A stretch of 64,000 nt of DNA from sequence record OR062525, one strand, 5' to 3'. Shown piece after piece: positions 32,537 to 61,076 of the stretch (position 1 is the stretch's first letter; every line of letters begins with the position of its first letter). The position numbers and the translations under genes were made by a program. The notes under the pieces were generated by a model. The model was not told the DNA's origin, did no database searches, and worked only from the letters and a program-made list of their open reading frames with translations. The DNA is from Escherichia phage vB_EcoM_10C2_SA_NWU.

Positions 32537-32632
32537 CTGTTTACGCTATTACTATTCACGCTCTTACTGTTTACATGCTTAATGGTTTACATGACCAATA
32601 GTTTACATAGCTAACTATTTACATTGAAATGA
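32537..32632. repeat. tandem array of about 16-bp imperfect direct repeats (core GTTTACAT)
   Basis: GTTTAC/ATTTAC at 32569, 32585, 32601, 32617 with exact 16-bp spacing, plus copy at 32539. Confidence 0.6.
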
Positions 32633-32663
32633 TAAGCCATGACATTCGTTTGCATGAAAACAA

Positions 32664-32693
32664 TTAACAAGTTAACAATTAACAAGTTAATAA
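32664..32693. repeat. tandem 8-bp repeats TTAACAAG/TTAACAAT (about 4 copies)
   Basis: TTAACAAGTTAACAATTAACAAGTTAATAA. Confidence 0.6.
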
Positions 32694-32698
32694 TCTAT

Positions 32699-32850
32699 GA
32701 CATAATATAAAAGCAGGGCAACTATTAGAAGATCTATAGTTGCCTTGCTTGTTATGTCATGATTAACTAAATACAAGGCAACTATGATCTGATTAATAGT
32801 TTGCAGACAAACTATCACGGGGGTGATGGTTACTGCTTTTATATTATGTC
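32699..32850. repeat. perfect 18-bp inverted repeat pair flanking GGCAACTAT palindromic sites
   Basis: GACATAATATAAAAGCAG (32699-32716) and reverse complement CTGCTTTTATATTATGTC (32833-32850); GGCAACTAT/ATAGTTGCC copies between. Confidence 0.6.
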
Positions 32851-33546
32851 GCGACTCCGTCGCGCCATGCCATTCGTTTGCATAGTTGCCTTATTGTTAC
32901 AGGTAAAATAATTACATTATTAATTATTTCTTATCTTTCTCTTAGTCATCTAATGATTCCAGTCAGTATAGTAATGTACAGTAAACATTAGACGACTAAA
33001 GATTTCTCTGTTTATGATAACTCATCGTGATAATTTCGGACTGTTTACGAAAAATGTTGACACCTGAGCTGATTTATGTTATGCAGTTTACACGAATAAT
33101 TATTTTATGCAGGTATTGACTATTCCGTTATTCTGTGGTTGGAATAAATACTTTGCAGGCTATAGAATGGCGTGCGTACGTGAATTCTGAGATCTGGCGG
33201 CTATAGTTATACTCGATTTTTCGCGTAGAACACGCTTTCGATGCTGTGTAAGTGTATGACTTATAAAGATTTTTAGTTGTTGACAAGATATTGGATATGT
33301 GCATCAGGTTAAAATTTGTGCAATAGCGGCATTACGTGCACTTTTGGGAGAGAAAACGGGTAAAAATGGACTTGCTACCACACAATGAAAAATTATGCAA
33401 TAGTTATTTTCCATGTATATTTGTACAGTGTGTGGGATTGATGGCTAGTCAATTATTCCACTTACCAGGCTGGGCCGTTTGTGGTAGGAGAAATACAGAC
33501 AAAAAGAAAGGGGCCTTTTAAAGCCCCTGATAGTTTAGTTAAGAAA

Positions 33547-33966
33547 TTATAATGATTCGTATATTTCATAGATTCGATTTGCCAGGTCGTTACGGTAGCG
33601 GAATTTTTCCTCACGTTTGATCATAAGATCTTTATAGCCGTACTCTTTAAGCACTTCATTAACTTTATGGCGGCATACTTTCATATTATCCTGCGCGTCA
33701 CCAATAAATCTGTTGCTATGGTGCATGGCTTTAATTTCTTCTTCCAGGACCAGGGCAACTATGCGGACCGGATCAAGCTGATAGGCGGTAACATCAATGC
33801 GGCATTGTAAACGGCTTTTTACGTCTGCCACCGGATATACTGCAACCTCTTCCCCGTCAACATTGACAATAATTAGTTTACCATCGATTTCGAATCCTTT
33901 CGCCGCCGGACCGTGACAAAAAGCGTTATCAAAGCTATATGCCGGATTATTAGATTTAATGTTCAT
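33547..33966 (-). CDS. hypothetical protein
   Basis: first gene of - strand array. Confidence 0.45.
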   Translation of the reverse strand: MNIKSNNPAYSFDNAFCHGPAAKGFEIDGKLIIVNVDGEEVAVYPVADVKSRLQCRIDVTAYQLDPVRIVALVLEEEIKAMHHSNRFIGDAQDNMKVCRHKVNEVLKEYGYKDLMIKREEKFRYRNDLANRIYEIYESL

Positions 33967-34109
33967 GGTGTTTTTACCTCTTAGTTAATTTTCTTACAAC
34001 TTCCCTTCAAAAAGAATATAGCAAAACTGCCGATCCTTGTCAACCAAGGATAGCATAATTTTTATGCGATCAAGGGGCTTTATTGCCCCTGACCATGTAA
34101 CTTGTTGTA

Positions 34110-34373
34110 TTATTTGTTGCTCATCCAGTTTTCCCAAGCTGCCTGATAATCTGCCTCACTACGGCGGATCTCTTCTTGTTCTTCAAGTCGGATCTCTTCT
34201 TCCAGGTATCCCAGGATATCGGCTTTTTTGGTCTGGCGTAACATCCAATCATCTTTTTTACGGGTAAAGATCTTATATGCTTTCTCGCAAACCTCTTTTT
34301 TGCTACCTTTTTGGACTTCAAGAACTTTGTAGGCCATGTACTGAACTAGTTTAAGCTGATCAAGACGTTTCAT
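34110..34373 (-). CDS. hypothetical charged protein
   Basis: co-directional ORF. Confidence 0.4.
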   Translation of the reverse strand: MKRLDQLKLVQYMAYKVLEVQKGSKKEVCEKAYKIFTRKKDDWMLRQTKKADILGYLEEEIRLEEQEEIRRSEADYQAAWENWMSNK

Positions 34374-34433
34374 GATGTTTACCTCTTTGTGTGGTTCTGA
34401 TTAGTGGGCCTCCCGGCCCGTGTCATTATCTTA

Positions 34434-34706
34434 TTACTTACGGCGGCAGAATTCAAGCGTTTTTAATTGATAATCTTCCTCAGCCTGGAGTACAACCGCC
34501 TCGATCATTTCGTTGGCATTGTTGAAGCCATACCCTTTAGCGAACTCGTCCGCACCACCTTCGTGATCATGTTCTGCGTTCATCGCTTCCACAAAATGGA
34601 ATTCCAAATTGTTGAGGTAGGGGCTTGATGTGCCGTCTTCTTTTTCGATGAGATCCCAAATAGCATTAAAACGTGATTCGACTTCTTGATTAATCCAGCT
34701 TGACAT
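34434..34706 (-). CDS. hypothetical acidic protein
   Basis: co-directional ORF with upstream GC hairpin. Confidence 0.4.
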   Translation of the reverse strand: MSSWINQEVESRFNAIWDLIEKEDGTSSPYLNNLEFHFVEAMNAEHDHEGGADEFAKGYGFNNANEMIEAVVLQAEEDYQLKTLEFCRRK

Positions 34707-34924
34707 AGTGTTTTCCTCTCTTCTGGTTGTTGTGTGGGCACCTTTGCCCCTTCAAGATAAATGTTACCCCACCCCCTGGCAGATGTCAACGGTTTTTATA
34801 GTTCTTATATGACAGGCAGGCCTGGTGATTGTCTCCCCCTGTTCCCAAGTGCCGCCCGTTTAATAAGAATAGCAAAAGGGGCCGAACAAGTCAACCCCAA
34901 AATCAGTACCAAAACACTTTTTAT

Positions 34925-35236
34925 TTATACGGTCCGGTCATTGGCCTTTGTCCAGGACCTGGCGATCCGTTTCCCAGTCACCTGGAACGGAGACTGCATT
35001 GTGTGTAATGAATCCAGCGTAAGGGAGGACCGTTTACGGCGTATCTTCAGGATCGCCAATGTATTGTCCATCTCACGGCCAGGTCCTGGGCTGTATGGTG
35101 TGCCTCCAGCGTTAAGGTTGATGATCTCATGTATTGAGATCCGGCGTTGTTTTGCTTCCGCATCTTTGAAGATAGCCAGCGGAGGCGCTATGCGTTGCCG
35201 ATACCAATCTAAAACGGTTGGCGTAATAGCGATCAT
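34925..35236 (-). CDS. hypothetical protein
   Basis: ATGA overlap with upstream gene; preferred over antisense + ORF 34761..35285. Confidence 0.35.
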   Translation of the reverse strand: MIAITPTVLDWYRQRIAPPLAIFKDAEAKQRRISIHEIINLNAGGTPYSPGPGREMDNTLAILKIRRKRSSLTLDSLHTMQSPFQVTGKRIARSWTKANDRTV

Positions 35237-35424
35237 ATTTTACCCCCTATGTAGTCCGGTCGGTTTTTCTCTGTCATACGCTTAAGCAATTCTTGCATGT
35301 TGCTTATGGCTTGTAGTGTATCCTCTTCAAGGGATGAATCAAGATAATCAGGATCATTCTTCACCTTGCAATGATTATGATAACGCAGTACCGCCAGTAC
35401 TTTTTTAACTTCTTCCGCTGTCAT
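35233..35424 (-). CDS. hypothetical protein
   Basis: co-directional ORF. Confidence 0.4.
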   Translation of the reverse strand: MTAEEVKKVLAVLRYHNHCKVKNDPDYLDSSLEEDTLQAISNMQELLKRMTEKNRPDYIGGKI

Positions 35425-35569
35425 TATCGCGCCTAAAACAATGAGTTAATATATAACACCAGATCGCTGACTACCAGGACAACATTAATCAGCACATACC
35501 TAACCATAAAGGGAAAGATCGCCAACATTGCCGCCACGATCCCCATGGTAATAATTATCTTTCTCATGG

Positions 35570-35854
35570 TTAACGGTTCACGTAAGTTTTCCCGTTCACG
35601 GTTATGGGCAGATCCTCCAGGTCTGGATCTTCCTTAAGGTCGCGAGCAAGCTCACCGCACCGGATACCCTCGAATCCGTAGTACTCTGTTGTGCCGTCCT
35701 TAAAAGTTTTAGCGGCAAGGCATAAGCGATAAGTAACCCCGATTTGATTGACGGCATGAATATCCGTTAGATTAACCTCTTTTGCCAGCTCTTTAGCCAT
35801 TACAGGCGCATTAAGTCCAACAACCAGGGTAACCACTGCGATCATCTTTTTCAT
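35570..35854 (-). CDS. small secreted/periplasmic protein
   Basis: N-terminal signal-peptide-like MKKMIAVVTLVVGLNAPVMA followed by AKE; two Cys. Confidence 0.45.
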   Translation of the reverse strand: MKKMIAVVTLVVGLNAPVMAKELAKEVNLTDIHAVNQIGVTYRLCLAAKTFKDGTTEYYGFEGIRCGELARDLKEDPDLEDLPITVNGKTYVNR

Positions 35855-35945
35855 TGTGTCTATCCTCTTTCTGCTACGTTTAAGGCGGCGGTAACCGCCT
35901 GTTTATGCTTTGTTGGTTAATTTTCAGGTATCTGTATAAATTAAA

Positions 35946-36161
35946 CTATGCTGTACGCTCAACTATAACAACGGTTTGGGGGATCTCCCCTTCCACCACT
36001 AGTAAGGCCTTTTTCTGCGTGATAGATATCTTTACCCGTTGCAGCGTGGCGGTGAAGTCTTTCATTTCGTCACGCGGTGTTTTAGTGCAGTACCAGATCT
36101 CAGGCTTGCCGATCTGTAAGTTGCGTAAAAATTCCGTTTTGCCTGTTTTGTTAGTGATCAT
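35946..36161 (-). CDS. hypothetical protein
   Basis: co-directional ORF. Confidence 0.35.
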   Translation of the reverse strand: MITNKTGKTEFLRNLQIGKPEIWYCTKTPRDEMKDFTATLQRVKISITQKKALLVVEGEIPQTVVIVERTA

Positions 36162-36352
36162 TTGCCAACCTCACCCGATACCGTTGGAAGACAAGATCAT
36201 ATTAGACATGGTTGCAATCAGGCCAATACCCAGGGCAATAACCAAGATCACTGCATCGATTAATTTCTGTTTCATGGTGTTTATTCTCTTCTGTTAGTAA
36301 CCTTATTCATGGGGCCGCTACCACAGCCCCAGGGTAAGGCAGCTATGTGCTT

Positions 36353-36598
36353 TTAGTGTTTCATTCCAACCATCGCGGCACGGATCGCCGTAGTGCTGTA
36401 CTTGAAGCCGTCCGGGGTCTTATCTTGTCCGGTTAGCTCCAGAAAAAGCATCATATCCCGCGCCGCATCATTACGATTAGCATTGGCGTTAATAAAGCCT
36501 TGGGCCAACCGGTACAATGACTCATCGTTATTAATCCAAAGGCTTACATTCCAATGAGTTTTGTTTTTGTAACCGTTATAACCTTTATTGCTTTTCAT
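36353..36598 (-). CDS. hypothetical protein
   Basis: start placed at internal ATG with AGAGGT RBS. Confidence 0.4.
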   Translation of the reverse strand: MKSNKGYNGYKNKTHWNVSLWINNDESLYRLAQGFINANANRNDAARDMMLFLELTGQDKTPDGFKYSTTAIRAAMVGMKH

Positions 36599-36940
36599 GG
36601 TGTTTACCTCTTCTTTGTTCCAGGTGGCGGACCATTCCACCGCCTTATGTATTATGCTTTGTAAGATGGCTGTTGTCAAACTATTTTAACGATAATCATC
36701 GTACGCTTTATTAACCTGGCGGATATAACATTCAAAAGCCAGATCAATAGATTTATATTCACGGATATACTCACCATAGGAAACCACATACATTTCTATA
36801 GCTTCCTCATATGCGAGGAGAATAGAATCTAAGCCTACGATCTCAGTCTTTGCAATAATAGCCATGATTTTTATCCTCTTTGTAGTTGGTGGGGTTCGTT
36901 GCCCCCTTTGATTTATATATTACAGTCTTATATGGTCATG

Positions 36941-37174
36941 TCAACTATTTTCAAAAAATTTTTCTGCTGTGATATTCTTCCCGGTAGGGTTCGCTACTTT
37001 CAAAATTTTATCATGCACTGGACGCCCAAAAGAATAAGCGCCGTACACAGTAAACCAATAATCGCCGTCAGGTTGTACTATTACTGCCGCATATGGTACG
37101 CCTTTTTCGTTTTTGCTGACAAAATAGATCACGTTGCCATTAATAGCCTCGGCGCGTTTAATTTGTTCCATCAT
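36941..37174 (-). CDS. hypothetical protein
   Basis: co-directional ORF; GC hairpin in leader. Confidence 0.4.
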   Translation of the reverse strand: MMEQIKRAEAINGNVIYFVSKNEKGVPYAAVIVQPDGDYWFTVYGAYSFGRPVHDKILKVANPTGKNITAEKFFENS

Positions 37175-37229
37175 GATGATTTGCCTCTCTTTATTTTCAT
37201 AATTGGGGGCCTTTTCGGCCCCGCCAGGT

Positions 37230-37514
37230 TTATTTATTGATAGCGTGCAGCGGGAAAGCTACGCCAGGTTGATAAATAACCTTTACAACCTCATCAGGAC
37301 AAAAGAAGTTGCAGAACTCACCGCAATAGGCCTCATCCTCTTTCAACTCTTCATCAACATACTCAAAAAAGTAGTCGATGCTTGGATAATCCTGGCCGTG
37401 ATTATAGTCAACCATCGTTAATAATAACTCTTGATCATTCCGTAGGATGTGCATACCCGCTTTTAAGTATTTTGCTTCCATTTCTACTACATCGCCAGCG
37501 GTAACAATAGCCAT
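37230..37514 (-). CDS. hypothetical acidic protein
   Basis: AGGAG RBS; GGGGGAGGCCCCC hairpin in leader. Confidence 0.4.
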   Translation of the reverse strand: MAIVTAGDVVEMEAKYLKAGMHILRNDQELLLTMVDYNHGQDYPSIDYFFEYVDEELKEDEAYCGEFCNFFCPDEVVKVIYQPGVAFPLHAINK

Positions 37515-37647
37515 GATTTTAACTCCTATCTATCTGGTCAACGATTGGGGGCCTCCCCCTCGACAACTCTTATTATCCATATTGTCGGGAATGATGCAAG
37601 TACTTCTTTAAAAATTTTTTAAGCGCCCCGTATGCCGTTGTAACGCC

Positions 37648-37678
37648 AAAATAATAAAGGCCATGCAACCGCATGGCC
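37648..37678 (-). terminator. rho-independent terminator (possibly bidirectional)
   Basis: GGCCATGC-AACC-GCATGGCC hairpin flanked by A-run on one side and T-run on the other. Confidence 0.5.
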
Positions 37679-37716
37679 TTTATGTGATTATATTGCTGCA
37701 GGCCCTGCTAGGGGCC

Positions 37717-38067
37717 TTATTTTGCATTCTTGCCTGTATTGCCGCCACGGTACCAGCGTTTGCGGTGAAAATGGTAATAATCCCCCTCGGCATTAAACAT
37801 CAGATGATTTTCAATAACCAGCTTACGAAGGTGGGCCGGATCTTGTTCCATTCTTGCCAGATTCCGGCGGCTGTTACGTAAGCGTATAAATTCCATATTC
37901 AGGCCGTTGATTGCAGCATGGATGTCAAAGTAACCACCTTTGAGACGTTCACGCATGGCGTTAAGCTCAACACAATATACAGATTTCTCACAAATCAAGG
38001 TATTAGCTAGGGCGCGGACCTGGGCAAGGGGGTTAAGCTCATTGAGGTAATATAGTTTGACTTTCAT
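37717..38067 (-). CDS. hypothetical protein
   Basis: co-directional ORF. Confidence 0.4.
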   Translation of the reverse strand: MKVKLYYLNELNPLAQVRALANTLICEKSVYCVELNAMRERLKGGYFDIHAAINGLNMEFIRLRNSRRNLARMEQDPAHLRKLVIENHLMFNAEGDYYHFHRKRWYRGGNTGKNAK

Positions 38068-38084
38068 AAAATCGCCTGCTGAAA

Positions 38085-38393
38085 TTAGTTTGAGAAAACA
38101 TCGTTCACAATAGCGATCACAATGCCGCCCACCTTGTCACGGTCAACAATGCACAAATCACCATGGATCATGCGGTAGTCTGGATGATCTTTCACAGAAT
38201 AGTCAATAAGTGTTTTCTTGTCGTCCAGCTTCGTAACTTCCATTCTCATAACGATATGAGAATCATCAAAGGCATTATTCCGAAAAGTCATAGCCTGACC
38301 GCCAGGGCACCCGGTGATCTCCACTTCCACACCATCTACGATCTGACCATCAAAGAAATAAAGATTATTAGCCTGGATAAACATGTCTATCAC
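38085..38393 (-). CDS. hypothetical protein
   Basis: co-directional ORF. Confidence 0.4.
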   Translation of the reverse strand: MIDMFIQANNLYFFDGQIVDGVEVEITGCPGGQAMTFRNNAFDDSHIVMRMEVTKLDDKKTLIDYSVKDHPDYRMIHGDLCIVDRDKVGGIVIAIVNDVFSN

Positions 38394-38431
38394 TCCTTGT
38401 TAACTGCGTGGTATTTTAACAGGGTTTAAAT

Positions 38432-38475
38432 TTACTTTATCGATGGCCCTGAAGTCAAGGCCATCTAAAAATAAA
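38432..38475 (-). promoter_or_regulatory. repeated 44-bp intergenic element with GATGGCC-N10-GGCCATC palindrome (copy 1)
   Basis: near-identical to copies at 42146 and 42765; TTGACT in loop on - strand. Confidence 0.5.
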
Positions 38476-38477
38476 TT

Positions 38478-38678
38478 TTACAGGCCTACAATCTCTTTGA
38501 TTCGTTTAACTGCTGCCTCAGCGCCTTGGGGGTAGAAATTATGATAACCAATCACGCGAGTGATACTAATCGCCGTTTGATGATCTTCATAGTCGCCCTT
38601 GAAGATTTCTTGACCGTCAATCAGCACGGCAATTTTTTCTTCTTTTTTGAAGTTAATAACGCGGATATTGTTGCTCAT
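38478..38678 (-). CDS. hypothetical protein
   Basis: co-directional ORF. Confidence 0.4.
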   Translation of the reverse strand: MSNNIRVINFKKEEKIAVLIDGQEIFKGDYEDHQTAISITRVIGYHNFYPQGAEAAVKRIKEIVGL

Positions 38679-39155
38679 TTTGTTTCTCCTTTCTGGTTTT
38701 TGTGGTGGTGGAGATTAGCTCCCCGTTGATTGTTATTATCCACATTCCGGACCGGATTGCAACACCCCGGAAGAAAAATTTTTTAAAAGATAGGCCCCCA
38801 TGATCGGGGGCCGCTCTTAGTTACTTACAGCGATAAAGTACATCCCTACGCCTAACAATATTTCAAGGGCGATAATCTCAAGCCATACCATAACACGGCG
38901 CACCTTATCAGCGCATGGCTTATCCTTGGTTGTCATCGTCTCCCCCTTCCCTCCTGTTAGTAGTGACGTGGTTTACAATGGCCCCCAGGAGTCCTATCAC
39001 CACGCACACCACAAGAAAAATTATCTCCGCTGTTGTTCGATCCATTGTTATAAAATTCCTCAAGATCAGGCCTGAAAATAAAGCGTTCGTTATTGAATCC
39101 GTCACGCCAGGCGGCTGGCTTCAAATCTTCACTAAAGGGATTAATTAACGTGGCG

Positions 39156-39527
39156 TTATTTAAACGGCTGGTCCACATATTTTCTATTCCTCTCAAATAG
39201 GCGATCCGCTTCAGTTAAACATATCTCATGGGCTTGGTCTCTGGTTTTAGCCTCATCAAAAACCTGTTGTGCCAGGCTGCAGCGTAGGGAGACTGGAAGA
39301 TCACTATAATAGGCGTTGACAAACGTTTGTGCGTCATACAGGTCGGAAAACACTTTACCCTTTCTATTATCGCCCTTGTCAACAATTGCAAGGATAACCA
39401 ATACAATAGTTGCAACCACTCCCAGGAAAATAGATATAACAAACCATAGAAAAGCGGATCTACCTATCTTGCCAGCGATCCAGGCGTTGAACAAGGCAAC
39501 TACTACAGCCAAAATAATAAATTCCAT
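39156..39527 (-). CDS. small membrane protein (two predicted TM helices)
   Basis: internal ATG with AAGAGGT RBS; MEFIILAVVVALFNAWIAG and FLWFVISIFLGVVATIVLVILAIV. Confidence 0.45.
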   Translation of the reverse strand: MEFIILAVVVALFNAWIAGKIGRSAFLWFVISIFLGVVATIVLVILAIVDKGDNRKGKVFSDLYDAQTFVNAYYSDLPVSLRCSLAQQVFDEAKTRDQAHEICLTEADRLFERNRKYVDQPFK

Positions 39528-39591
39528 TCTATGTACCTCTTTTGCAGTTCTGTTTAACAATAAGGCGGCAAATATGCCGCCTGTTACCTGA

Positions 39592-39972
39592 TTAAAAATT
39601 ATCGCCGTAAATCTTTCCGCTTTCTGCCCACACCACCACGCGGGGCATGTTATCCCATACATCTTGTTTTAGATTTAACGCGTGCAATTCTTCGGTGGTG
39701 CTCATACCAGGCACGGGCTGATTGTATACTGCAAAACGACCACCTGCATAATCATAGGCCAGAGTTAAATCACACTGAATCATCTTTTTGATCATGGCGT
39801 TAAGCATAGCGTTAGCCGCATACTGGTCACGTTTTAAAGGCAACTCTTTGATTAGTTTGCGATAGTTTTCAATGTGATCGCACACTGTTTCACGTGGAAG
39901 ATCTTTCATATCTTCACGGAATGTAACCAGGTTAAACATAACGGTGTCAATAGCTTTAGTAGTGTTTTTCAT
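39592..39972 (-). CDS. hypothetical protein
   Basis: co-directional ORF. Confidence 0.4.
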   Translation of the reverse strand: MKNTTKAIDTVMFNLVTFREDMKDLPRETVCDHIENYRKLIKELPLKRDQYAANAMLNAMIKKMIQCDLTLAYDYAGGRFAVYNQPVPGMSTTEELHALNLKQDVWDNMPRVVVWAESGKIYGDNF

Positions 39973-40060
39973 AATGTTTACCTCTTTGTTTTGTGTGGGG
40001 CAAACGTCTTGCCCCTTGAGTTTTAATATAGCAGGTTTTTAGGTTATTGCAACACTTTAT

Positions 40061-40684
40061 TTATGAAAAAGTCATCTCACCGTGTTCATCGACATCAAAC
40101 CGCCAATCATTGGCCTCGATAAGGCCGATCAAGTTTTCGGCGGTGAATTGTTCAAGATAGGCCTCCTCCAGGTCTACGTAAACCTTGCGGGATAACTCCC
40201 GTACCGTCTCGGTGATCAGCTCTTCCAGATCTTCCACTTTGTTTTCTTGTTTGGTGGTCAGGTCTAGCCATGTAGTATCGATGTATCCGTTTACAGTGTT
40301 TTCGTGACTATAGCGGCTATATGGATCACGCTCAACACTTGCGGATAACTCGCCATCGTGCATTGTGCCGAACAAGTGACGAATTGAGCGGAATTTAGTC
40401 AGAGACTTGACTTTACGCAAGAATTTTTCTAAATCCACGTTTTCCGCACTGATTGACGCGCCGTCACCCTGGCACCAAAAGCCTGACCAATGTACATCGG
40501 TATCTTCAAGGCCGTACTCTGGAAAAACATATTCTTTATAGTACTCAATTACACTTTCTGCAAAAAAGTTATCCCCGCTGTGTTCTTCTCTTTCGCGGAC
40601 CATTTCCACGGCTTTTTCTTTTTGTTCGTCGGTCAGCACGTCGAAAGCTAAATTGTAACCTGTGGTAATGTTAACGGTGGTCAT
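40061..40684 (-). CDS. hypothetical acidic protein (207 aa)
   Basis: ORF with consensus promoter, leader hairpin and AGGAGAAAA RBS. Confidence 0.5.
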   Translation of the reverse strand: MTTVNITTGYNLAFDVLTDEQKEKAVEMVREREEHSGDNFFAESVIEYYKEYVFPEYGLEDTDVHWSGFWCQGDGASISAENVDLEKFLRKVKSLTKFRSIRHLFGTMHDGELSASVERDPYSRYSHENTVNGYIDTTWLDLTTKQENKVEDLEELITETVRELSRKVYVDLEEAYLEQFTAENLIGLIEANDWRFDVDEHGEMTFS

Positions 40685-40712
40685 GATATTTTCTCCTGTT
40701 TTCTTTGTTAGT

Positions 40713-40731
40713 GGCGGGAAGTTTTCCCGCC
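40713..40731 (-). promoter_or_regulatory. conserved 5' leader hairpin GGCGGGA..TCCCGCC (copy 1)
   Basis: inverted repeat between promoter and RBS; same hairpin at 42558 and 43226. Confidence 0.5.
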
Positions 40732-40741
40732 TGTGTTTTTA

Positions 40742-40770
40742 ATTATACTTATTGAGATTTACTTGTCAAC
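40742..40770 (-). promoter_or_regulatory. consensus sigma70-like promoter
   Basis: TTGACA-N17-TATAAT on - strand. Confidence 0.6.
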
Positions 40771-41019
40771 ACTATTTTTTAAATTATTGTGGCGCAAAAT
40801 GTTTAAAATCTCTTCAACGTCATCAACACGGCGGCAATTTTTAAACGCTACCAATTGCCCCATGATTTTAATCACTGGGCGGCCTTGCCAGTGCCCCTGG
40901 AGAAAGCGCGCCTTGACTTTATCGGTGGAACTATCACGCCACCAAACGGCCTTGTTATTGCAGTAGTAAAAATTATTCAGGACAATATCAACTTTATCAA
41001 AATTTTTTAATTTACGCAT
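40759..41019 (-). CDS. hypothetical protein
   Basis: co-directional ORF. Confidence 0.4.
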   Translation of the reverse strand: MRKLKNFDKVDIVLNNFYYCNNKAVWWRDSSTDKVKARFLQGHWQGRPVIKIMGQLVAFKNCRRVDDVEEILNILRHNNLKNSVDK

Positions 41020-41239
41020 GGCGTTTACTCCTTACTTCTCGCTTTGATGTGATTAGTATATCTAGAATATTTTAGATGTCAACAATATTTTTAACGCTTT
41101 AAAACAGCCTTTGACGATGTTTTCAGGTTAAGAAATGGGATTGCATGGGTAGGGGGCTTTTAGGGCGTTGTGGGGCCAACCAGGGCGCTATTCGTAGGGT
41201 AGAAATAAAAAGCCCCGCACGATGGCGGGGCGTTGGTTG

Positions 41240-41461
41240 TTAGTTGCCTTTGTGGCGGTATCGTTCCGCCTGCCGTTCACGTTCCAAAAGGAGGCCCGGC
41301 AATTTACGATCATAATGATTCCGCCAGATCTTCCCAAATCTTTTTGGCTTATTCAGTTTATTGTTACGCTGGCGGCGTTCCGGCAGCTCTTCGGAATCAT
41401 GAGATCGCTTTACAATTTTCTCAAAATTAATCTTCATATATTCCCCCCTTGCTAACTTCAA
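41240..41461 (-). CDS. small basic protein
   Basis: Arg/Lys-rich ORF. Confidence 0.35.
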   Translation of the reverse strand: MKLARGEYMKINFEKIVKRSHDSEELPERRQRNNKLNKPKRFGKIWRNHYDRKLPGLLLERERQAERYRHKGN

Positions 41462-41780
41462 TATTGGCCTGAATAGCCCGGATACGGCGCTTTATAACTT
41501 CCTGATCTGTGTGATCGTATCCCCAAAAGTCCACAATTTTTGCGCCCCCTGCCTCCAAGCGGTATAGTGTTTCCTGCATCTTGTAAGCCGGGATCGGTCG
41601 CGGTGTTACTTGGTCACCTTCTTTATTTTTATACTTTATAATATAATCTTCGTTATCGTTGAATGTCCAAAATGGATATTCTGCAAGGGCGGTACTTCCT
41701 CTTTCCTTTTTATCCTGGATCTTGTTTACAATTAAAGCTGTAGCAATAGCGCCAATAATAAAACTAGCCCCGCTGATCAT
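41427..41780 (-). CDS. membrane-anchored hypothetical protein
   Basis: N-terminal hydrophobic segment ASFIIGAIATALIV. Confidence 0.4.
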   Translation of the reverse strand: MISGASFIIGAIATALIVNKIQDKKERGSTALAEYPFWTFNDNEDYIIKYKNKEGDQVTPRPIPAYKMQETLYRLEAGGAKIVDFWGYDHTDQEVIKRRIRAIQANIEVSKGGIYED

Positions 41781-41855
41781 GTACTTTCTCCTTTCATGGT
41801 GTTAATAAACTATCTTTATAGATGGCCCTGCCACTAGGGCCACCGAAAAAACAGC

Positions 41856-42101
41856 TTATTTGACAATACCGACAAAACAGATCCCACCTTCCCCAACATA
41901 GGCGATGTCGGTCACCTTATAATTGGTTAAGATCTGCTTATTTAGTTCATTAATAAAATCGGTCATCGCGTTGGTGTAGTTGTCTTCCATGTCTAGGGAA
42001 TAATCCCAAGTGTAAACCTTTTTACGTCCGAAGCCTTTTACCATGATACGGGCGCTTTTGGTGTTGGTAGGGGCGTAATATTTAGTGATTAGTGCTGCCA
42101 T
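41856..42101 (-). CDS. hypothetical protein
   Basis: co-directional ORF; AGGAG RBS. Confidence 0.4.
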   Translation of the reverse strand: MAALITKYYAPTNTKSARIMVKGFGRKKVYTWDYSLDMEDNYTNAMTDFINELNKQILTNYKVTDIAYVGEGGICFVGIVK

Positions 42102-42145
42102 GGTTTTAACTCCTATGCATTAGTTCAGTGTTAACAGTATAAAGT

Positions 42146-42190
42146 TTACTTTATTGATGGCCCTGGAGTCAAGGCCATCTAAAAATAATC
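42146..42190 (-). promoter_or_regulatory. repeated 44-bp palindromic intergenic element (copy 2)
   Basis: TTTACTTTATTGATGGCCCTGGAGTCAAGGCCATCTAAAAATAA. Confidence 0.5.
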
Positions 42191-42532
42191 TTACTCGTTT
42201 TCTTCCAGCTCCGCAAGCTCTTCTTTTGCTTCTTCCAACTCTGTCTGTAATTCCTGGTATTCTTCATCGTCCTCAATATCCAGGCTGTCGATGTAGTCGC
42301 TAAATCCGCAGCGGTAAGCGATAGGATCTAGCTCCTTGAGGATACGCGACGGAAGAAAAGAAATGTTTCCGATCATAATTTCGCCGTAGATCTCGTCTAA
42401 CCATTCATCATAGTTTTCGTCGTACTTGTCCTCGTCGATTTCAAAGTTATCGATCTTATTCTCAAGGTCTGCGATCTGTTTTTTCAGGGCAGCGATCTGA
42501 ATAGCTTTTTCTGCGGCGGTCATAGTGGTCAT
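42191..42532 (-). CDS. hypothetical acidic coiled-coil protein
   Basis: ORF with promoter (TTGACA-N16-TATACT at 42583-42610), leader hairpin and RBS. Confidence 0.45.
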   Translation of the reverse strand: MTTMTAAEKAIQIAALKKQIADLENKIDNFEIDEDKYDENYDEWLDEIYGEIMIGNISFLPSRILKELDPIAYRCGFSDYIDSLDIEDDEEYQELQTELEEAKEELAELEENE

Positions 42533-42764
42533 GGTGTTTTCTCCTTTTGTGTGTTCTGGGAAGTTTTCCCGTTGATGTGTTTAGTATACCGATCTAAGTT
42601 AGCTTGTCAATTAAAAGTTTAAGAAAAATTTTGCGACACCGTTGGCGCTACCCATCAACATTTGCGCCAGGATATAACCAATGATGCAAACGATAATAGT
42701 TACCTTTGTGTGCTGGCGTGTAGTGCTCATCTTCAAGCCTCCTTTTAGCTTAACTAGGATTAGT

Positions 42765-42809
42765 TTACTTTATTGATGGCCCTGGAGTCAAGGCCATCTA
42801 AAAATAAAC
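42765..42809 (-). promoter_or_regulatory. repeated 44-bp palindromic intergenic element (copy 3)
   Basis: identical core to copy 2. Confidence 0.5.
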
Positions 42810-43205
42810 TTAGTAAGTTTTCAGTACTTTCCCATCCAGTCTGTCAAGCTGGATCTCGATAGCTGCAGAAAACCTATTATAAACCACATCGCCCAGGGAG
42901 TCCAGCCAATCTATGACGTTATACACCTGCTCTTTATTCTTGCAAGTCCGGATCCGTTTCATTACGTAAGACGGATCAATATTAGTGCTCCCGTTGTTGT
43001 GGTCATGCGCCTGGCCTGCTGCACTGGTTATAGATTTTACAACCACCTGAAAGGGCTTTAAGGTGCCTTTTGCGTTCATCTCACGCGCTTTTGCGGCGCG
43101 GTTGTTATATGTTACACAACGGCGGCAAATGTTGACCAAATGCATATCAATAATTTTTTCATCGTTTGCCAGTTCGTTCATGATGCGGCGTACGTTCTTA
43201 TTCAT
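42810..43205 (-). CDS. hypothetical protein
   Basis: ORF preceded by conserved leader hairpin. Confidence 0.45.
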   Translation of the reverse strand: MNKNVRRIMNELANDEKIIDMHLVNICRRCVTYNNRAAKAREMNAKGTLKPFQVVVKSITSAAGQAHDHNNGSTNIDPSYVMKRIRTCKNKEQVYNVIDWLDSLGDVVYNRFSAAIEIQLDRLDGKVLKTY

Positions 43206-43295
43206 GATCTTTTTTCCTTTGTGTTGGCGGGAAACATTCCCGCCTTTTGTGTCTAGTTTACTTTAATTTTGCAGCGTGTCAATAATTTTTTTTTT

Positions 43296-43694
43296 TTATT
43301 CGTGGGCGCATGTCACAATGTGCTTTTTATACCCCAGGTGGGCAGCAAGTGCTGACAAAAACTCATCTTCATAGATCCAGCCGTTGGCAGTGATCCCCAT
43401 AGCATTTAACGCGCTTTCAAGTGCTGCATTGGCCTTATCATAACCGTGACCGCTCGCCTTGCCACCAGTATAACCGTACTTATTATTCTTGTTGTCGTGT
43501 ATCCAAAAAACGCAGTAGTTAGTGTTACCGCTGGCGGCGGCATAGTACCGGATCTCCGCTACTTCGTGCAAATTATTATCATCGTCTAGGCCCACCAGAT
43601 TATAAGCCTTGTAAAATCCACGATCACGGCGGCAGTTCTTGACATCAGAAAAAGAAAAGTCCGCATTATCAAAATTAAAGGTAGTGGTTTTCAT
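43296..43694 (-). CDS. hypothetical protein
   Basis: co-directional ORF. Confidence 0.4.
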   Translation of the reverse strand: MKTTTFNFDNADFSFSDVKNCRRDRGFYKAYNLVGLDDDNNLHEVAEIRYYAAASGNTNYCVFWIHDNKNNKYGYTGGKASGHGYDKANAALESALNAMGITANGWIYEDEFLSALAAHLGYKKHIVTCAHE

Positions 43695-43757
43695 GATTTT
43701 ATCCTCTTAGTGTCTTTTGCGATTTCAGTATATTTTGTGTCAGACCATATGTCAATA

Positions 43758-43955
43758 TTATTTTTTATTAAACCAGTGGTTGATCTGACCTTTTGTCAGG
43801 GCGCAACGGTTAAGCTGTTGCAGGGTATAGCTATGACCGCGACGAAATTTATAAAGGCCTTGCCCGTTGTTGATGGTTACATCCACCCGGCAAATCACTT
43901 GATTGGTGACCACCTGGCGAGTGTTGCGACGTACTTTAATTCCGTAGGCGTTCAT
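43758..43955 (-). CDS. hypothetical protein
   Basis: co-directional ORF. Confidence 0.35.
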   Translation of the reverse strand: MNAYGIKVRRNTRQVVTNQVICRVDVTINNGQGLYKFRRGHSYTLQQLNRCALTKGQINHWFNKK

Positions 43956-44033
43956 GATTTTTTATCCTCTCTGTTAATTGGTGTGGTGTTGTTCACCTTG
44001 CGAGGATAAGAATAACAAGAACTGTCCGAGCTG

Positions 44034-44216
44034 TCAACCATTAGTTAAAATTATTTTTGGGTAGAATTCTCCAGCCGCCGCCCCTGCCAGGTTAACCATC
44101 ATTTTTTCGTACTCTTCTTTATGTTCCAACGCTCCCGCCATAGCCTTTTCAACCAGGGCGATAGCCTCAGCGTCATTAATAGCTACATTTTCCAGGGGGA
44201 TCATATTACCTTCCAT
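44034..44216 (-). CDS. hypothetical protein
   Basis: co-directional ORF. Confidence 0.35.
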   Translation of the reverse strand: MEGNMIPLENVAINDAEAIALVEKAMAGALEHKEEYEKMMVNLAGAAAGEFYPKIILTNG

Positions 44217-44410
44217 TTTTGTACCTCCTCTTCAATTGTTACCTATCCTATAGCATAGGCCCACCAGGTTTGCAAGCCTTCATTATCTCCTACCTGGTCA
44301 GTTAGGCCCTGCCAGGCTGGCCCCGCCAGGTTGCAGCGGTCAGCGCATCAGGTTAGAATTTTTTTTTTTTGAAAAGTGTTGACAGCGGCCCCGCCAGGTG
44401 GCACAATATA

Positions 44411-44650
44411 CCTATCGAAAGGACGGCAGGCACCGGTGACGGGGGAGACAACCACCGGGGATGGGCGCTGCATAAAATGAGAACGGTTATCATTATCATT
44501 TAAAAATTTATGCAAAAAATCCTTGCTTTCTTTGTCCTGTGTGATACTATAATAACAAGCCGGGGCAACAGGGGCCGGGAGACAATCACCGGGCCTGCCC
44601 GTTATTCTGCAAACGAGAATGATTATCATTCAAAATTCTAAATGAGAACT
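44411..44650. repeat. two tandem homologous units of about 95 bp (candidate small RNAs or protein-binding modules)
   Basis: GGGAGACAA[CT]CACCGGG and GAGAA-N-TTATCATT shared by unit 44411-44510 and unit 44555-44650. Confidence 0.5.
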
Positions 44651-45235
44651 CCTCGCATTTAATAAATTTAATTAGCATGCTAATTACCCTCCGTAACAAT
44701 TTCCTATAAAACAGTATCCCATAAAATATTCCCATATAGAAATTTTAAAAATCCATTTCTGAAAACGAAAAATCGATTTCGTCCCCAAAAATTTCAGGTC
44801 GAGATCCGGAACGATTTCCAGAAAATCCGATTCAGAAAACGAAAAACAGATCGAGTACTGAGAAATTTATCGAGAAAAATTTTCAGAAAATCCAAGCCAT
44901 GAAATGAAAAGTAGATCGAGTACTTGGAAAGCTGCACCGCAACTTCAAGATAGTGGTTAGATTGTTACCATAGAAGGTTAAGGGCAAGTGGAGGAAGTTC
45001 TAGTAGAGGGAGGTTAGCATGTGCGGGAAATCTATAATGGTGGCCTGGAATATGGTGCAAACGATAGGATGAGTTATTCAGCTTGTCGCGCCTACTCTGA
45101 AAAATCCATTTTAGTTTTCGATCCATTTTCTGATTTTCTAAGAATTTTAAAATATCCAGCCCGGTGAAATATCAAAAGGAGGAAATCCATTTTAGAAATC
45201 CCCCTTACACTTGATATGCCAGGAATTTTCAAGTA

Positions 45236-45565
45236 TCAGCTGTCTTTGTTTTTAGGTTTGTACATGCGTAGAGGTATGGTCTTTGTAACATTCCATTTCC
45301 TCAATCCTTCCCAGCTCCAGTTGTGGGCGTGGTATCCGGTTATGCATGCACTACTGGAGTGATCGTAAGCATAAGAGAACGCTAAGCGCACCAGGTGGGG
45401 CCAGTCCTTCCATGGTTGTGGACCGTAAGCTTTTCTCCAACACCGACACAAACTAAATGTCTCAAGGATAGGAAGGATAACAAACCCATACACTGTCACC
45501 AAAATAGTCAGTGCAATGATTGTCAGGAACACATACCCTGCAGTTGAAATGATGATCTCTGTCAT
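45236..45565 (-). CDS. membrane protein (hypothetical)
   Basis: N-terminal hydrophobic stretch IIISTAGYVFLTIIALTILVTVYGFVILPIL. Confidence 0.4.
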   Translation of the reverse strand: MTEIIISTAGYVFLTIIALTILVTVYGFVILPILETFSLCRCWRKAYGPQPWKDWPHLVRLAFSYAYDHSSSACITGYHAHNWSWEGLRKWNVTKTIPLRMYKPKNKDS

Positions 45566-61016: not shown

Positions 61017-61076
61017 CGTTTAGTGCTTCCTTAGTTTTTGTGGGGAGGAGTGCCTCCCCTTTATACTCACATCTTA

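What the first reader, a model, noticed from the sequence alone, without database searches (positions are those of the whole stretch)
40713..43244. Near-identical 5' leader hairpin GGCGGGA-loop-TCCCGCC upstream of three unrelated early genes
The same inverted repeat lies 15-30 nt upstream of the start codons of the 40061-40684, 42191-42532 and 42810-43205 genes (40713-40731, 42558-42570, 43226-43244), each downstream of a TTGACA-N16/17-TATA[AC]T promoter. Other genes in this block carry different short GC hairpins in the same position (e.g. GGGGGAGGCCCCC at about 37541, GGGGCAAACGTCTTGCCCC at about 39990). The recurrence suggests a shared post-transcriptional control or processing signal.
Basis: seen in the sequence. 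Interest (0 to 1): 0.45.

Follow-up and report, generated by a model that had tools for sequence, protein, structure and literature searches.

The report
Hairpins capping phage early mRNA leaders
The repeated GGCGGGAA...TTCCCGCC hairpins are real and belong to a large, apparently undescribed family of short GC-rich stem-loops placed just after early promoters in rV5-like and phi92-like coliphages, where they most likely form a protective structure at the very 5' end of early mRNAs.

Summary
The window is 100% identical to Escherichia phage vB_EcoM_12A_SA_NWU, an rV5-like Vequintavirus. Two perfect 8-bp hairpins, GGCGGGAA-N3-TTCCCGCC, lie at 40713-40731 and 43226-43244. The third site, 42558-42570, keeps only the 13-nt core GGGAAaacTTCCC.

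Each hairpin starts 10-12 nt after the -10 hexamer of a sigma70-type promoter, at about +3 to +6 of the predicted transcript. An unstructured A/C-rich spacer, a Shine-Dalgarno sequence and ATG follow.

About ten other early leaders in the window carry different GC hairpins at the same offset. In 20 related genomes the stems are kept, loops vary or flip, one pair runs G-C > G.U > A-U, and hairpins swap between leaders.

The same design and the same GGCGG...CCGCC hairpin family follow most early promoters in the Stephanstirmvirinae phages examined (phi92, VEcB, A110a, B15, KP13-26).

My best reading is a 5'-terminal mRNA stem-loop. It sits in a modular promoter-hairpin-leader cassette like the PeSLs of T4-type phages. 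It probably shields early mRNAs from 5'-end-dependent decay. That function and the start sites are inferred, not shown.

RNase III processing, nut-like sites, operators and terminators fit poorly. A sequence-specific binding factor is not excluded.

The parts
40713..40731 (-). Leader hairpin GGCGGGAAaacTTCCCGCC (8 bp, 3-nt loop, -14.6 kcal/mol) upstream of gene 40061-40684
   Evidence: It starts 10 nt after the -10. It is conserved in 18 of 21 Vequintavirus loci, with a loop inversion in L015 and a U.G wobble in L004.
40742..40769 (-). Sigma70-type promoter TTGACA-16-TATAAT (rV5 P185 equivalent)
   Evidence: rV5 Table S4. The stop codon of the upstream gene lies in its spacer.
40682..40712 (-). 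Unstructured A/C-rich spacer, SD AGGAG (40693-40697) and ATG of gene 40061-40684
   Evidence: It is unpaired in both the MFE and centroid folds.
43226..43244 (-). Leader hairpin GGCGGGAAtgtTTCCCGCC (8 bp) upstream of gene 42810-43205
   Evidence: The identical 19-mer follows an early promoter in Phapecoctavirus B15. The loop is inverted to ACA in L004.
43255..43282 (-). Sigma70-type promoter TTGACA-16-TAAACT (rV5 P194 equivalent)
42558..42570 (-). Truncated copy GGGAAaacTTCCC (5 bp, -5.5 kcal/mol) upstream of gene 42191-42532
   Evidence: It is identical to 40716-40728 and starts 12 nt after the -10.
42583..42610 (-). Sigma70-type promoter TTGACA-16-TATACT (rV5 P192 equivalent)
39997..40015 (-). 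Leader hairpin GGGGCAAgacgtTTGCCCC, 9 nt after -10 TATATT, upstream of gene 39592-39972
   Evidence: The loop is inverted in L140/L142. It is transplanted onto the g34706 leader in L141.
37547..37559 (-). Leader hairpin GGGGGaggCCCCC, 12 nt after -10 GATAAT, upstream of gene 37230-37514
   Evidence: Relatives show a G-C / G.U / A-U series at its third pair.
36622..36645 (-). Leader hairpin AGGCGGTGGAatggTCCGCCACCT (GGCGG type), upstream of gene 36353-36598
   Evidence: It resembles the phi92 leader GGCGGTGGaatagcCCACCGCC.
36891..36906 (-). Leader hairpin GGGGgcaacgaaCCCC upstream of gene 36686-36865
38710..38724 (-). Weak leader hairpin GGGGAgctaaTCTCC upstream of gene 38478-38678
   Evidence: Relatives have GGGGA/TCCCC or GGGGAG/CTCCCC with different loops.
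34736..34749 (-). Leader hairpin GGGCAaaggTGCCC upstream of gene 34434-34706
34406..34419 (-). Leader hairpin GGGCCgggaGGCCC upstream of gene 34110-34373
   Evidence: The loop is GGGA, AAAA or GAAA in relatives. The whole cassette is absent in rV5-type relatives.
43985..43997 (-). Weak leader hairpin GGTGaacaaCACC upstream of gene 43758-43955
61042..61059 (-). Same design outside the block: GGGGAGGcactCCTCCCC, 11 nt after -10 TAAGAT, followed by ACAAAAAC

Best explanation
The GGCGGGAA...TTCCCGCC repeats belong to a family of short GC-rich stem-loops encoded 9-12 bp downstream of the -10 hexamer of sigma70-type early promoters. RNA polymerase normally starts about 7-8 bp after the -10. The stem should therefore begin at about +3 to +6 and form the extreme 5' end of each early mRNA. 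An unstructured A/C-rich spacer, the Shine-Dalgarno sequence and the start codon follow.

Promoter, hairpin and leader make up a modular cassette. It resembles the promoter-early stem-loop (PeSL) cassettes of T4-type phages. Cassettes are duplicated, converted and recombined among small ORFan genes. That is why unrelated genes share near-identical hairpins.

The most likely job of the hairpin is to act as a 5'-terminal stem-loop. Such a structure would hinder 5'-end-dependent decay (RppH conversion and RNase E entry). It would also give every early cistron the same insulated, open ribosome-binding region.

Shown here: presence, excess over chance, fixed offset from the promoter, conservation of stem over loop, sense-strand bias, cassette shuffling, and spread across two phage subfamilies.

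Inferred, not shown: the transcription start positions and the stabilising effect.
For: 1. Position. Ten of 12 window hairpins start 9-12 nt after a -10 hexamer although their sequences are unrelated. In Stephanstirmvirinae plus the window, 42 of 68 start at 9-12 nt.

2. Excess over chance. Hairpins at -8 kcal/mol or better occur in 7 of 16 early leaders, against 1.2 in shuffles. For phi92 the figures are 12 of 17 against 3.1. For B15 they are 16 of 22 against 6.0.

3. No U-tract follows on the sense strand. The terminator scan lists these hairpins only on the opposite strand.

4. The rest of the leader, including SD and AUG, is unpaired in the MFE and centroid folds.

5. Variability across 21 Vequintavirus sequences, as minority states per column: stems 0.35, loops 0.89, 5' flank 0.50.

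6. Changes that keep the structure:
- the third pair of the g37514 hairpin is G-C, G.U or A-U;
- the g38678 stem stays GGGGA/TCCCC with five different loops;
- there are U.G wobbles in g40684 (L004), g43955 (L004) and g34706 (L140);
- three loop inversions leave the stem intact.

7. Among paralogues, the stem position just inside GCGG/CCGC is G-C, C-G or U-A.

8. Imperfect hairpins are more stable as sense RNA. All 7 differences above 2.5 kcal/mol favour the sense strand, and Wilcoxon p = 0.024 on 29 hairpins that are not fully independent.

9. Cassette behaviour. One hairpin is transplanted between leaders (L141). A110a has a chimeric hairpin. Gene indels between relatives have junctions at cassettes.

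10. Established knowledge: a stem-loop at or within a few nucleotides of the 5' end stabilises E. coli mRNAs against RNase E. The sources are Emory 1992, Bouvet & Belasco 1992, Arnold 1998 and Bricker & Belasco 1999, seen as references 92-95 in PMC3997798.
Against: - No transcription start has been mapped for any rV5-like or phi92-like phage that I could find.
- The predicted 5' overhangs are 0-6 nt, typically 3-4 (for example AUAG in phi92-type leaders). That is at the edge of what should still block RppH and RNase E.
- Four to six early promoters in the block have no such hairpin (41055, 43727, 34015 and the cassettes with -35 in the loop).
- In rV5-type relatives the g34373 leader lacks the hairpin, so it is dispensable for some genes.
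- Related cassettes in the window and in KP13-26 put the hairpin around the -35, or between the -35 and -10. There it cannot be in the RNA made from that promoter. That hints at a role on read-through RNA or on DNA.
- Among within-genus polymorphisms, single-sided transitions are symmetric: 8 keep a sense-strand wobble and 8 would keep only an antisense wobble (my count).
- The near-invariant GGCGG base and ACATAG flank in Stephanstirmvirinae are more sequence conservation than a purely structural cap needs.
Confidence: 0.5

Rival explanations
1. A sequence-specific recognition element. The GGCGG...CCGCC hairpin with its ACATAG 5' flank would be bound by a phage or host factor, either an RNA-binding protein or a DNA-binding repressor. 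That factor would co-ordinate the whole early regulon, for example shut-off, timing or translation.
For: - In phi92, VEcB, A110a, B15 and KP13-26 most early promoters are followed by nearly the same (C)AC(A/G)TAG-GGCGG...CCGC(C/T).
- The exact 19-mer of window 43226-43244 occurs in B15, which belongs to another subfamily.
- In Stephanstirmvirinae the loops in the promoter-SD orientation are TGG, TAG, ATAG or ATGG. My count found none in the inverted orientation.
- Promoter spacers and downstream leaders of the paralogues differ while the hairpin stays identical.
Against: - The distance between the conserved GCGG and CCGC cores varies from 15 to 20 nt. Stems are 6-10 bp and loops 3-6 nt. That does not fit a rigid dimeric DNA operator.
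- In Vequintavirus the same position holds unrelated hairpins such as GGGGCAA.., GGGGG.., GGGCC.. and GGGGAG...
- Loops flip to their reverse complement in natural isolates.
- Sequence identity can also arise from cassette duplication and gene conversion.
Confidence: 0.2
2. A transcription attenuator or terminator, or a barrier protecting 3' ends, acting on RNA that reads through from upstream promoters. This is the PeSL interpretation. It is also how the EdH4 and Alma records annotate the two 8-bp hairpins.
For: - The EdH4 and Alma GenBank records label the 43226 hairpin as a putative terminator. Alma also labels the 40713 hairpin.
- Upstream genes end inside or next to the promoter with no terminator between, so read-through RNA must contain the hairpin.
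- In RB49 a PeSL stem-loop reduced a downstream reporter as much as rrnB T1 (PMC2839356).
- Sister cassettes carry the hairpin over the -35 or in the spacer. A promoter-less intercistronic hairpin lies at 37206-37222.
Against: - No U-tract follows any of these hairpins on the sense strand. The 3' flanks are ACTAAC, AACACA, AGAACA and ACACAA.
- True terminators with T-runs exist separately in the same block, at 41212-41231, 39563-39582, 38793-38812 and 37654-37683.
- The fixed 9-12 nt offset from the -10 is not needed for a terminator.
- A barrier role for upstream 3' ends is compatible with the best explanation rather than exclusive of it.
Confidence: 0.15
3. Repeats with no role in expression. 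The stem-loops would persist because palindromic, repeated cassettes spread by recombination or template switching. They would serve only as substrates for modular gene shuffling.
For: - Three loop inversions, a signature of template switching at palindromes.
- Hairpin transplantation and chimeras.
- Deletions in L018/L003 and L019 lie exactly between repeated cassettes.
- G-run and C-run length polymorphism in the stems.
Against: - Stems are clearly more constrained than loops.
- Unrelated hairpin sequences share the same offset from the promoter.
- Imperfections are biased towards sense-strand G.U pairs.
- The design is maintained across two subfamilies and different hosts.
Confidence: 0.1
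4. Intrinsic terminators for antisense (plus-strand) transcription entering the early block.
For: On the plus strand, 43226-43244 is followed by TTTTGTGTCT and 40713-40731 by TGTGTTTTTA. The scan lists them and two others as terminator-like.
Against: - The T-richness is simply the complement of the A-rich start region.
- It is absent from most family members. The Stephanstirmvirinae 5' flank is CACATAG, and only 2 of 13 antisense copies of the commonest hairpin have a T-run.
- Imperfect hairpins are weaker on the antisense strand.
- Only two short plus-strand genes lie in the block.
Confidence: 0.05

Closest known systems
PeSL (promoter-early stem-loop) cassettes of T4-type phages RB49, phi1, PST and nt-1 (Arbiol et al. 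2010, PMC2839356; Comeau et al. 2014, PMC4122927)
   Same: - A strong sigma70-type early promoter sits next to a stable G-run/C-run stem-loop and ends in SD plus ATG.
- Cassettes are repeated in the intergenic spaces of an ORFan-rich region.
- Stem-loop positions vary relative to the promoter, including downstream of the -10, over the -35, and between -35 and -10.
- Indels between close relatives have junctions at the cassettes, and crossovers occur inside the stem-loop.
   Different: - The phage lineage differs: Vequintavirinae and Stephanstirmvirinae, not T4-like.
- The commonest position here is 9-12 nt after the -10, that is inside the transcript. In phi1/RB49 the commonest positions are between -35 and -10 or over the -10.
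- One stem sequence (GGCGG...CCGCC) with a conserved 5' flank dominates across genomes.
- The hairpins lack U-tracts, so the terminator role proposed for PeSLs is doubtful here.
- Mini-circles were not tested.
5'-terminal stabiliser stem-loops of E. coli mRNAs (ompA 5' UTR hp1, papA; also the T7 phi10 leader used in pET vectors, the latter from memory)
   Same: - A short stable stem-loop sits at or within a few nucleotides of the 5' end.
- No particular sequence is needed.
- An accessible ribosome-binding region follows.
   Different: - Here the 5' ends are only predicted, and no half-life data exist.
- The element is repeated at 10-18 promoters per genome. That is not known for the classic cases.
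Rho-independent terminators (as annotated in the EdH4 and Alma records)
   Same: A GC-rich hairpin of 8 bp at -14.6 kcal/mol. Elsewhere in viral contigs the same palindrome usually sits before a T-run (77 of 116 sites).
   Different: There is no U-tract on the coding strand. The hairpin lies downstream of a promoter and 20-28 nt upstream of a start codon.
Lambda-type nut sites (boxA + boxB) and HK022 put RNAs
   Same: An RNA hairpin encoded just downstream of early promoters.
   Different: - No boxA lies nearby.
- Loops are 3-4 nt, variable and invertible, not a GNRA-like pentaloop.
- put RNAs are about 70 nt with two stem-loops.
- Here nearly every gene has its own promoter.

Membership tests
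PeSL cassette | Consensus-like sigma70 early promoter with an AT-rich upstream region | tested here: met
   TTGACA-16-TATAAT, TATACT and TAAACT at 40742-40769, 42583-42610 and 43255-43282, with A/T-rich upstream sequence. The same promoters are listed for rV5.
PeSL cassette | Adjacent stable stem-loop, often polyG then polyC, at a variable position relative to the promoter | tested here: met
   GC hairpins lie after the -10, around the -35, and between -35 and -10 or over the -10 in KP13-26.
PeSL cassette | Repeated in intergenic spaces of an ORFan-rich variable region, ending in SD plus start codon | tested here: met
   The ten downstream proteins tested have no known function.
PeSL cassette | Cassettes flank the indels that distinguish close relatives (modular shuffling) | tested here: met
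   L018 and L003 lack window 42189-42749, which lies between two identical cassettes. L019 lacks 41831-42138. Other junctions fall at 34383-34397, 34877, 36667-36671 and 41077-41082.
PeSL cassette | Stem-loop acts as a transcription terminator or attenuator | tested here: inconclusive
   There is no U-tract on the sense strand. Activity cannot be measured with these tools.
PeSL cassette | Described in T4-type myoviruses | tested here: not met
   The phage is a Vequintavirus. The relatives carrying the same element are Stephanstirmvirinae.
5'-terminal mRNA stabiliser stem-loop | Stem-loop no more than a few unpaired nucleotides from the 5' end of the transcript | tested here: inconclusive
   The offset from the -10 is 9-12 nt in 10 of 12 window hairpins. 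That predicts overhangs of about 2-5 nt. No start site has been mapped.
5'-terminal mRNA stabiliser stem-loop | Structure, not sequence, is what is required | tested here: met
   Unrelated stems sit at the same position. Loops are free, and compensatory and wobble changes occur. The caveat is the conserved GGCGG base in Stephanstirmvirinae.
5'-terminal mRNA stabiliser stem-loop | Prolongs mRNA half-life in an RNase E/RppH-dependent way | not testable with these tools
   This needs rifampicin-chase or reporter experiments.
Intrinsic terminator | GC-rich hairpin immediately followed by a U-tract on the transcribed strand | tested here: not met
   The sense-strand 3' flanks are ACTAACAAAG, AACACAAAGG and AGAACACACA. 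The scan lists the hairpins only on the plus strand.
RNase III processing site (T7 early type) | Duplex of roughly 20 bp or more | tested here: not met
   Stems are 5-10 bp.
Lambda-type nut site | boxA consensus plus a boxB hairpin with a conserved purine-rich pentaloop | tested here: not met
   No boxA match lies near any hairpin. Loops are AAC, TGT and others, variable and invertible.
Palindromic operator of a dimeric repressor | Constant spacing of conserved half-sites | tested here: not met
   The GCGG-to-CCGC span is 15-20 nt among family members.
Any Rfam family | Match to a curated covariance model | tested here: not met
   For 33000-45500 there are only two sub-threshold chance hits.

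The most novel reading that the evidence does not exclude
The GGCGG...CCGCC stem with its ACATAG 5' flank would be a dedicated cis-element of an early regulon, shared by Vequintavirinae and Stephanstirmvirinae. A phage-encoded or host RNA-binding factor would read it at the 5' end of 10-18 early mRNAs per genome. That factor would set the lifetime, translation or shut-off of those mRNAs together.
Probability: 0.15. Interest if true: 0.7.

Novelty: new variant of a known kind. Interest (0 to 1): 0.45.

Why it matters
- Early genes of rV5-like and phi92-like coliphages are almost all of unknown function, and their regulation is unstudied. These phages are widely used in therapy and biocontrol collections.
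- A single design rule appears to govern most early transcripts in two subfamilies: promoter, 5' hairpin at a fixed offset, open A/C-rich leader, SD. That gives a directly testable handle on how these phages keep early mRNAs alive or co-ordinate them.
- It corrects a recurring annotation error, since these hairpins are deposited as terminators.
- It extends the PeSL idea of mobile regulatory cassettes beyond T4-type phages.
- The cassettes are also compact, natural promoter-plus-5'-UTR parts for expression in E. coli.

Tried and rejected
- RNase III or other processing site: stems are too short and there is no cleavage evidence.
- nut/boxB or put: no boxA, and the loops are variable.
- Operator: variable half-site spacing.
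- Antisense terminator: the T-run is not conserved in the family, and hairpins are weaker on the antisense strand.
- Rfam: no family.
- Scan of IMG/VR for the exact palindrome. Of 116 sites, 77 look like ordinary terminators. Only 4 have promoter-leader context, and at least two of those look rV5- or phi92-like. The palindrome itself is therefore not diagnostic.
- Protein-based search for related loci in IMG/VR gave only two close relatives. The distant homologues showed no similar leader.
- Counting single-sided transitions among within-genus variants for strand asymmetry gave 8 against 8, so it was uninformative.
- A covariance model of the phi92 leaders was not built. The MAFFT alignment (A1) misaligned the 3' arms of stems of different length, and a same-length subset would only have restated the sequence motif.
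- Literature searches for transcriptomes or start-site maps of Vequintavirus or phi92, or for any description of these hairpins, found nothing. The rV5 genome paper lists the promoters but not the hairpins.


Full report
**Identity and setting**

The 4-kb stretch around the finding is 100% identical to Escherichia phage vB_EcoM_12A_SA_NWU (OR062528.1), genus Vequintavirus, which is rV5-like. It is 90-95% identical to more than 110 other records.

The finding lies in a minus-strand block of tiny genes at about 33.5-44.5 kb. All are annotated 'hypothetical', and most have their own intergenic leader. The ten proteins I scanned have no known function.

**The observation**

Read on the minus strand, 40713-40731 is GGCGGGAAaacTTCCCGCC and 43226-43244 is GGCGGGAAtgtTTCCCGCC. 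Both are perfect 8-bp stems with 3-nt loops at -14.6 kcal/mol. They are the only two matches to GGCGGGAA-N3-TTCCCGCC in the window even with three mismatches, against 0.09 expected.

The third site, 42558-42570, is only GGGAAaacTTCCC. It is identical to the core of the first hairpin. It has 5 bp, and its leader does not fold better than shuffles (z = 0.08).

The promoters are TTGACA-16-TATAAT, TTGACA-16-TATACT and TTGACA-16-TAAACT. They correspond to rV5 promoters P185, P192 and P194. The rV5 genome paper lists these promoters but says nothing about the hairpins.

**Anatomy**

The hairpins start 10, 12 and 10 nt after the last base of the -10 hexamer. They end 28, 25 and 20 nt before the ATG.

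E. coli RNA polymerase usually starts 7-8 nt after the -10 (established knowledge). The stems should therefore begin at about +3 to +6 of the RNA. Folding the predicted leaders gives one isolated 5' hairpin. The A/C-rich spacer, SD and AUG stay unpaired in both MFE and centroid structures.

None of the hairpins is followed by a T-run on the coding strand. The terminator scan lists them only on the opposite strand. The stop codon of the upstream gene lies inside or next to the promoter, so read-through RNAs also contain the hairpin.

**A general design, not three sites**

Other early leaders carry different GC hairpins at the same place:
- 39997-40015
- 37547-37559
- 36891-36906
- 36622-36645
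- 38710-38724
- 34736-34749
- 34406-34419
- 43985-43997
- 61042-61059, outside the block

Ten of these 12 hairpins start 9-12 nt after a -10 hexamer although their sequences are unrelated.

In the early block, 7 of 16 promoter-bearing leaders fold at -8 kcal/mol or better within 42 nt of the -10. Dinucleotide shuffles give a mean of 1.2 and a maximum of 4 in 200.

Four other leaders instead carry a hairpin around the -35 hexamer: three 24-nt copies plus a variant at 41821-41844. Three or four leaders have no hairpin.

**Comparison within the genus**

I compared 20 other Vequintavirus sequences. Leaders were anchored on the downstream gene.

Stems are less variable than loops. Minority states per column are 0.35 for stems and 0.89 for loops. 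The 5' flank scores 0.50, the 3' flank 0.39 and the SD-ATG region 0.19.

Specific changes preserve the helix:
- The third pair of the g37514 hairpin is G-C (GGGGG/CCCCC), G.U (GGGGG/CCTCC) or A-U (GGAGG/CCTCC).
- The g38678 stem stays GGGGA/TCCCC, or becomes GGGGAG/CTCCCC, with five different loops.
- U.G or G.U wobbles appear in g40684 (L004), g43955 (L004) and g34706 (L140).

Three hairpins show exact loop inversions with intact stems. These are AAC to GTT in L015, TGT to ACA in L004, and GACGT to ACGTC in L140/L142. This is the signature of template switching at palindromes.

In L141 the g34706 leader carries the g39972 hairpin. Some variants break a pair (L003, L016, L012). In rV5-type phages the g34373 leader has no hairpin, so the element is not indispensable.

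My count of single-sided transitions was symmetric: 8 sense-wobble against 8 antisense-wobble. It gives no strand information.

Comparing sense and antisense folds of 29 hairpins does give some. Nineteen are more stable in the sense strand, and all seven differences above 2.5 kcal/mol favour it. The mean difference is -0.95 kcal/mol with Wilcoxon p = 0.024, on hairpins that are not fully independent.

**Beyond the genus**

The early ORFan block of phi92 (Stephanstirmvirinae) has the same layout and the same hairpin family. The -10 hexamer is followed by about 7 nt and then ACATAG. Next comes one of these hairpins:
- GGCGGGAAAtggTTTCCCGCC
- GCGGGAAttgTTCCCGC
- GGGCGGCAatagTGCCGCTC
- GGCGGTGGaatagcCCACCGCC

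An A/C-rich spacer, SD and ATG follow.

Hairpin-bearing leaders (at -4.5 kcal/mol or better) number 14 of 17 in phi92. They number 13 of 16 in VEcB, 14 of 18 in A110a and 17 of 22 in Phapecoctavirus B15. All four are well above shuffles at the -8 kcal/mol threshold.

B15 contains the exact 19-mer of window 43226-43244 behind one of its promoters. Klebsiella phage KP13-26 shows the same family. It also has cassettes whose hairpin lies between the -35 and -10 or across the -10.

Among paralogues the base GCGG/CCGC is nearly invariant. The next pair is G-C, C-G or U-A, and stem length and loop size vary. The GCGG-to-CCGC span is 15-20 nt.

Elsewhere in IMG/VR the same palindrome is mostly an ordinary terminator, at 77 of 116 sites. 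Only 4 sites have the promoter-leader context.

**Cassette behaviour**

Gene-content differences between relatives have junctions at these cassettes:
- L018 and L003 lack exactly the DNA between two identical cassettes with the -35 in the loop (window 42189-42749).
- L019 lacks 41831-42138.
- Other junctions fall at 34383-34397, 34877, 36667-36671 and 41077-41082.

A110a has a chimeric hairpin. This matches the published behaviour of PeSL cassettes in T4-type phages. There, promoter plus stem-loop units at several positions relative to the promoter mediate modular shuffling, and crossovers were mapped inside the loop (PMC2839356; PMC4122927).

**Interpretation**

The near-identity upstream of unrelated genes is best explained by shared cassette ancestry and conversion. 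What selection maintains is a sense-strand RNA stem at a fixed distance from the promoter.

The mechanism I consider most likely is a 5'-terminal stem-loop that hinders 5'-end-dependent decay. It would also leave a standardised, open ribosome-binding region. This rests on well-established E. coli work (references 92-95 in PMC3997798). The start sites and any effect on half-life are inferred.

Points against this reading:
- The predicted overhangs of 3-4 nt are borderline for protection.
- Some leaders lack the hairpin.
- Sister cassettes place hairpins upstream of the start site.
- The sequence conservation of the GGCGG base and ACATAG flank in Stephanstirmvirinae leaves room for a specific binding factor.

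**Rejected or weak alternatives**

- RNase III: the stems are too short.
- nut-like sites: there is no boxA and the loops are invertible.
- Dimeric operator: the half-site spacing varies.
- Sense-strand terminator: there is no U-tract. EdH4 and Alma nevertheless annotate these hairpins as terminators.
- Antisense terminator: the T-run is not conserved in the family.
- Rfam has no matching family.

I found no paper describing these hairpins and no transcriptome for these phages.

**Verdict**

The feature is real and non-random. It is a new variant of a known kind: PeSL-like promoter/stem-loop cassettes, here with the stem-loop in the transcribed leader and one dominant stem family across two subfamilies. 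Interest is moderate. It would rise if a specific factor reads the hairpin.

Noticed in passing
window 38442-38465, 42156-42179, 42775-42798 (minus strand); variant at 41821-41844: Three near-identical 24-nt hairpins, GATGGCCTTGACTCCAGGGCCATC, carry a -35-like TTGACT in the loop. They sit inside cassettes of about 45 nt (TTTTTAGATGGCC...CCATCAATAAAGTAAACT) directly after stop codons. Relatives L018/L003 and L019 have deletions whose ends lie in these cassettes.
   Followed up: partly
window 37217-37230, 44080-44093, 44305-44318, 44319-44332, 44387-44400 (minus strand): The motif AACCTGGCGGGGCC occurs five times with 2 or fewer mismatches, against 0.16 expected. It is clustered upstream of gene 44034-44216 and after gene 37230-37514. 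Several indel junctions between relatives fall in the 44.1-44.3 kb cluster.
   Followed up: no
window 44632-45237: A gene-free stretch of about 600 nt holds three direct repeats of about 62 nt (44730-44930, spacing 65-74 nt). It also has four copies of AAATCCATTT(C/T)(T/A)G. It looks iteron-like and its function is unknown.
   Followed up: no
window 32062-33546: A gene-free stretch of 1.5 kb separates the plus-strand block from the minus-strand early block. In the Gotham record the genome end and its 459-bp terminal repeat lie about 1 kb beyond the last early gene. This is probably the region of the physical genome terminus.
   Followed up: no
window 37206-37222 (minus strand): Hairpin GGGGCCgaaaaGGCCCC lies between two genes. 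It has no promoter and no T-run, and it ends 18 nt before the next SD. It is an intercistronic hairpin, which suggests such stems also punctuate polycistronic RNA.
   Followed up: no
L015, L004, L140/L142 versus window 40713-40731, 43226-43244, 39997-40015: Exact reverse-complement flips of hairpin loops with unchanged stems: AAC to GTT, TGT to ACA, and GACGT to ACGTC. This is the signature of template switching at palindromes.
   Followed up: partly
L147 (Klebsiella phage KP13-26), leaders of the genes starting at 3667, 6370, 6607, 10761 and 11048: These promoters have a GC hairpin between the -35 and -10 (TTGACGCGCCCaaggaaaGGGCGCATAAT) or spanning the -10. These are the same PeSL subclasses described for RB49/phi1.
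   Followed up: no
GenBank records MK327930.1 (EdH4) and OV101294.1 (Alma): The 8-bp leader hairpins are annotated as putative transcription terminators although they lack a U-tract and sit between a promoter and its gene. Alma labels the equivalents of both 40713-40731 and 43226-43244. EdH4 labels the equivalent of 43226-43244.
   Followed up: yes
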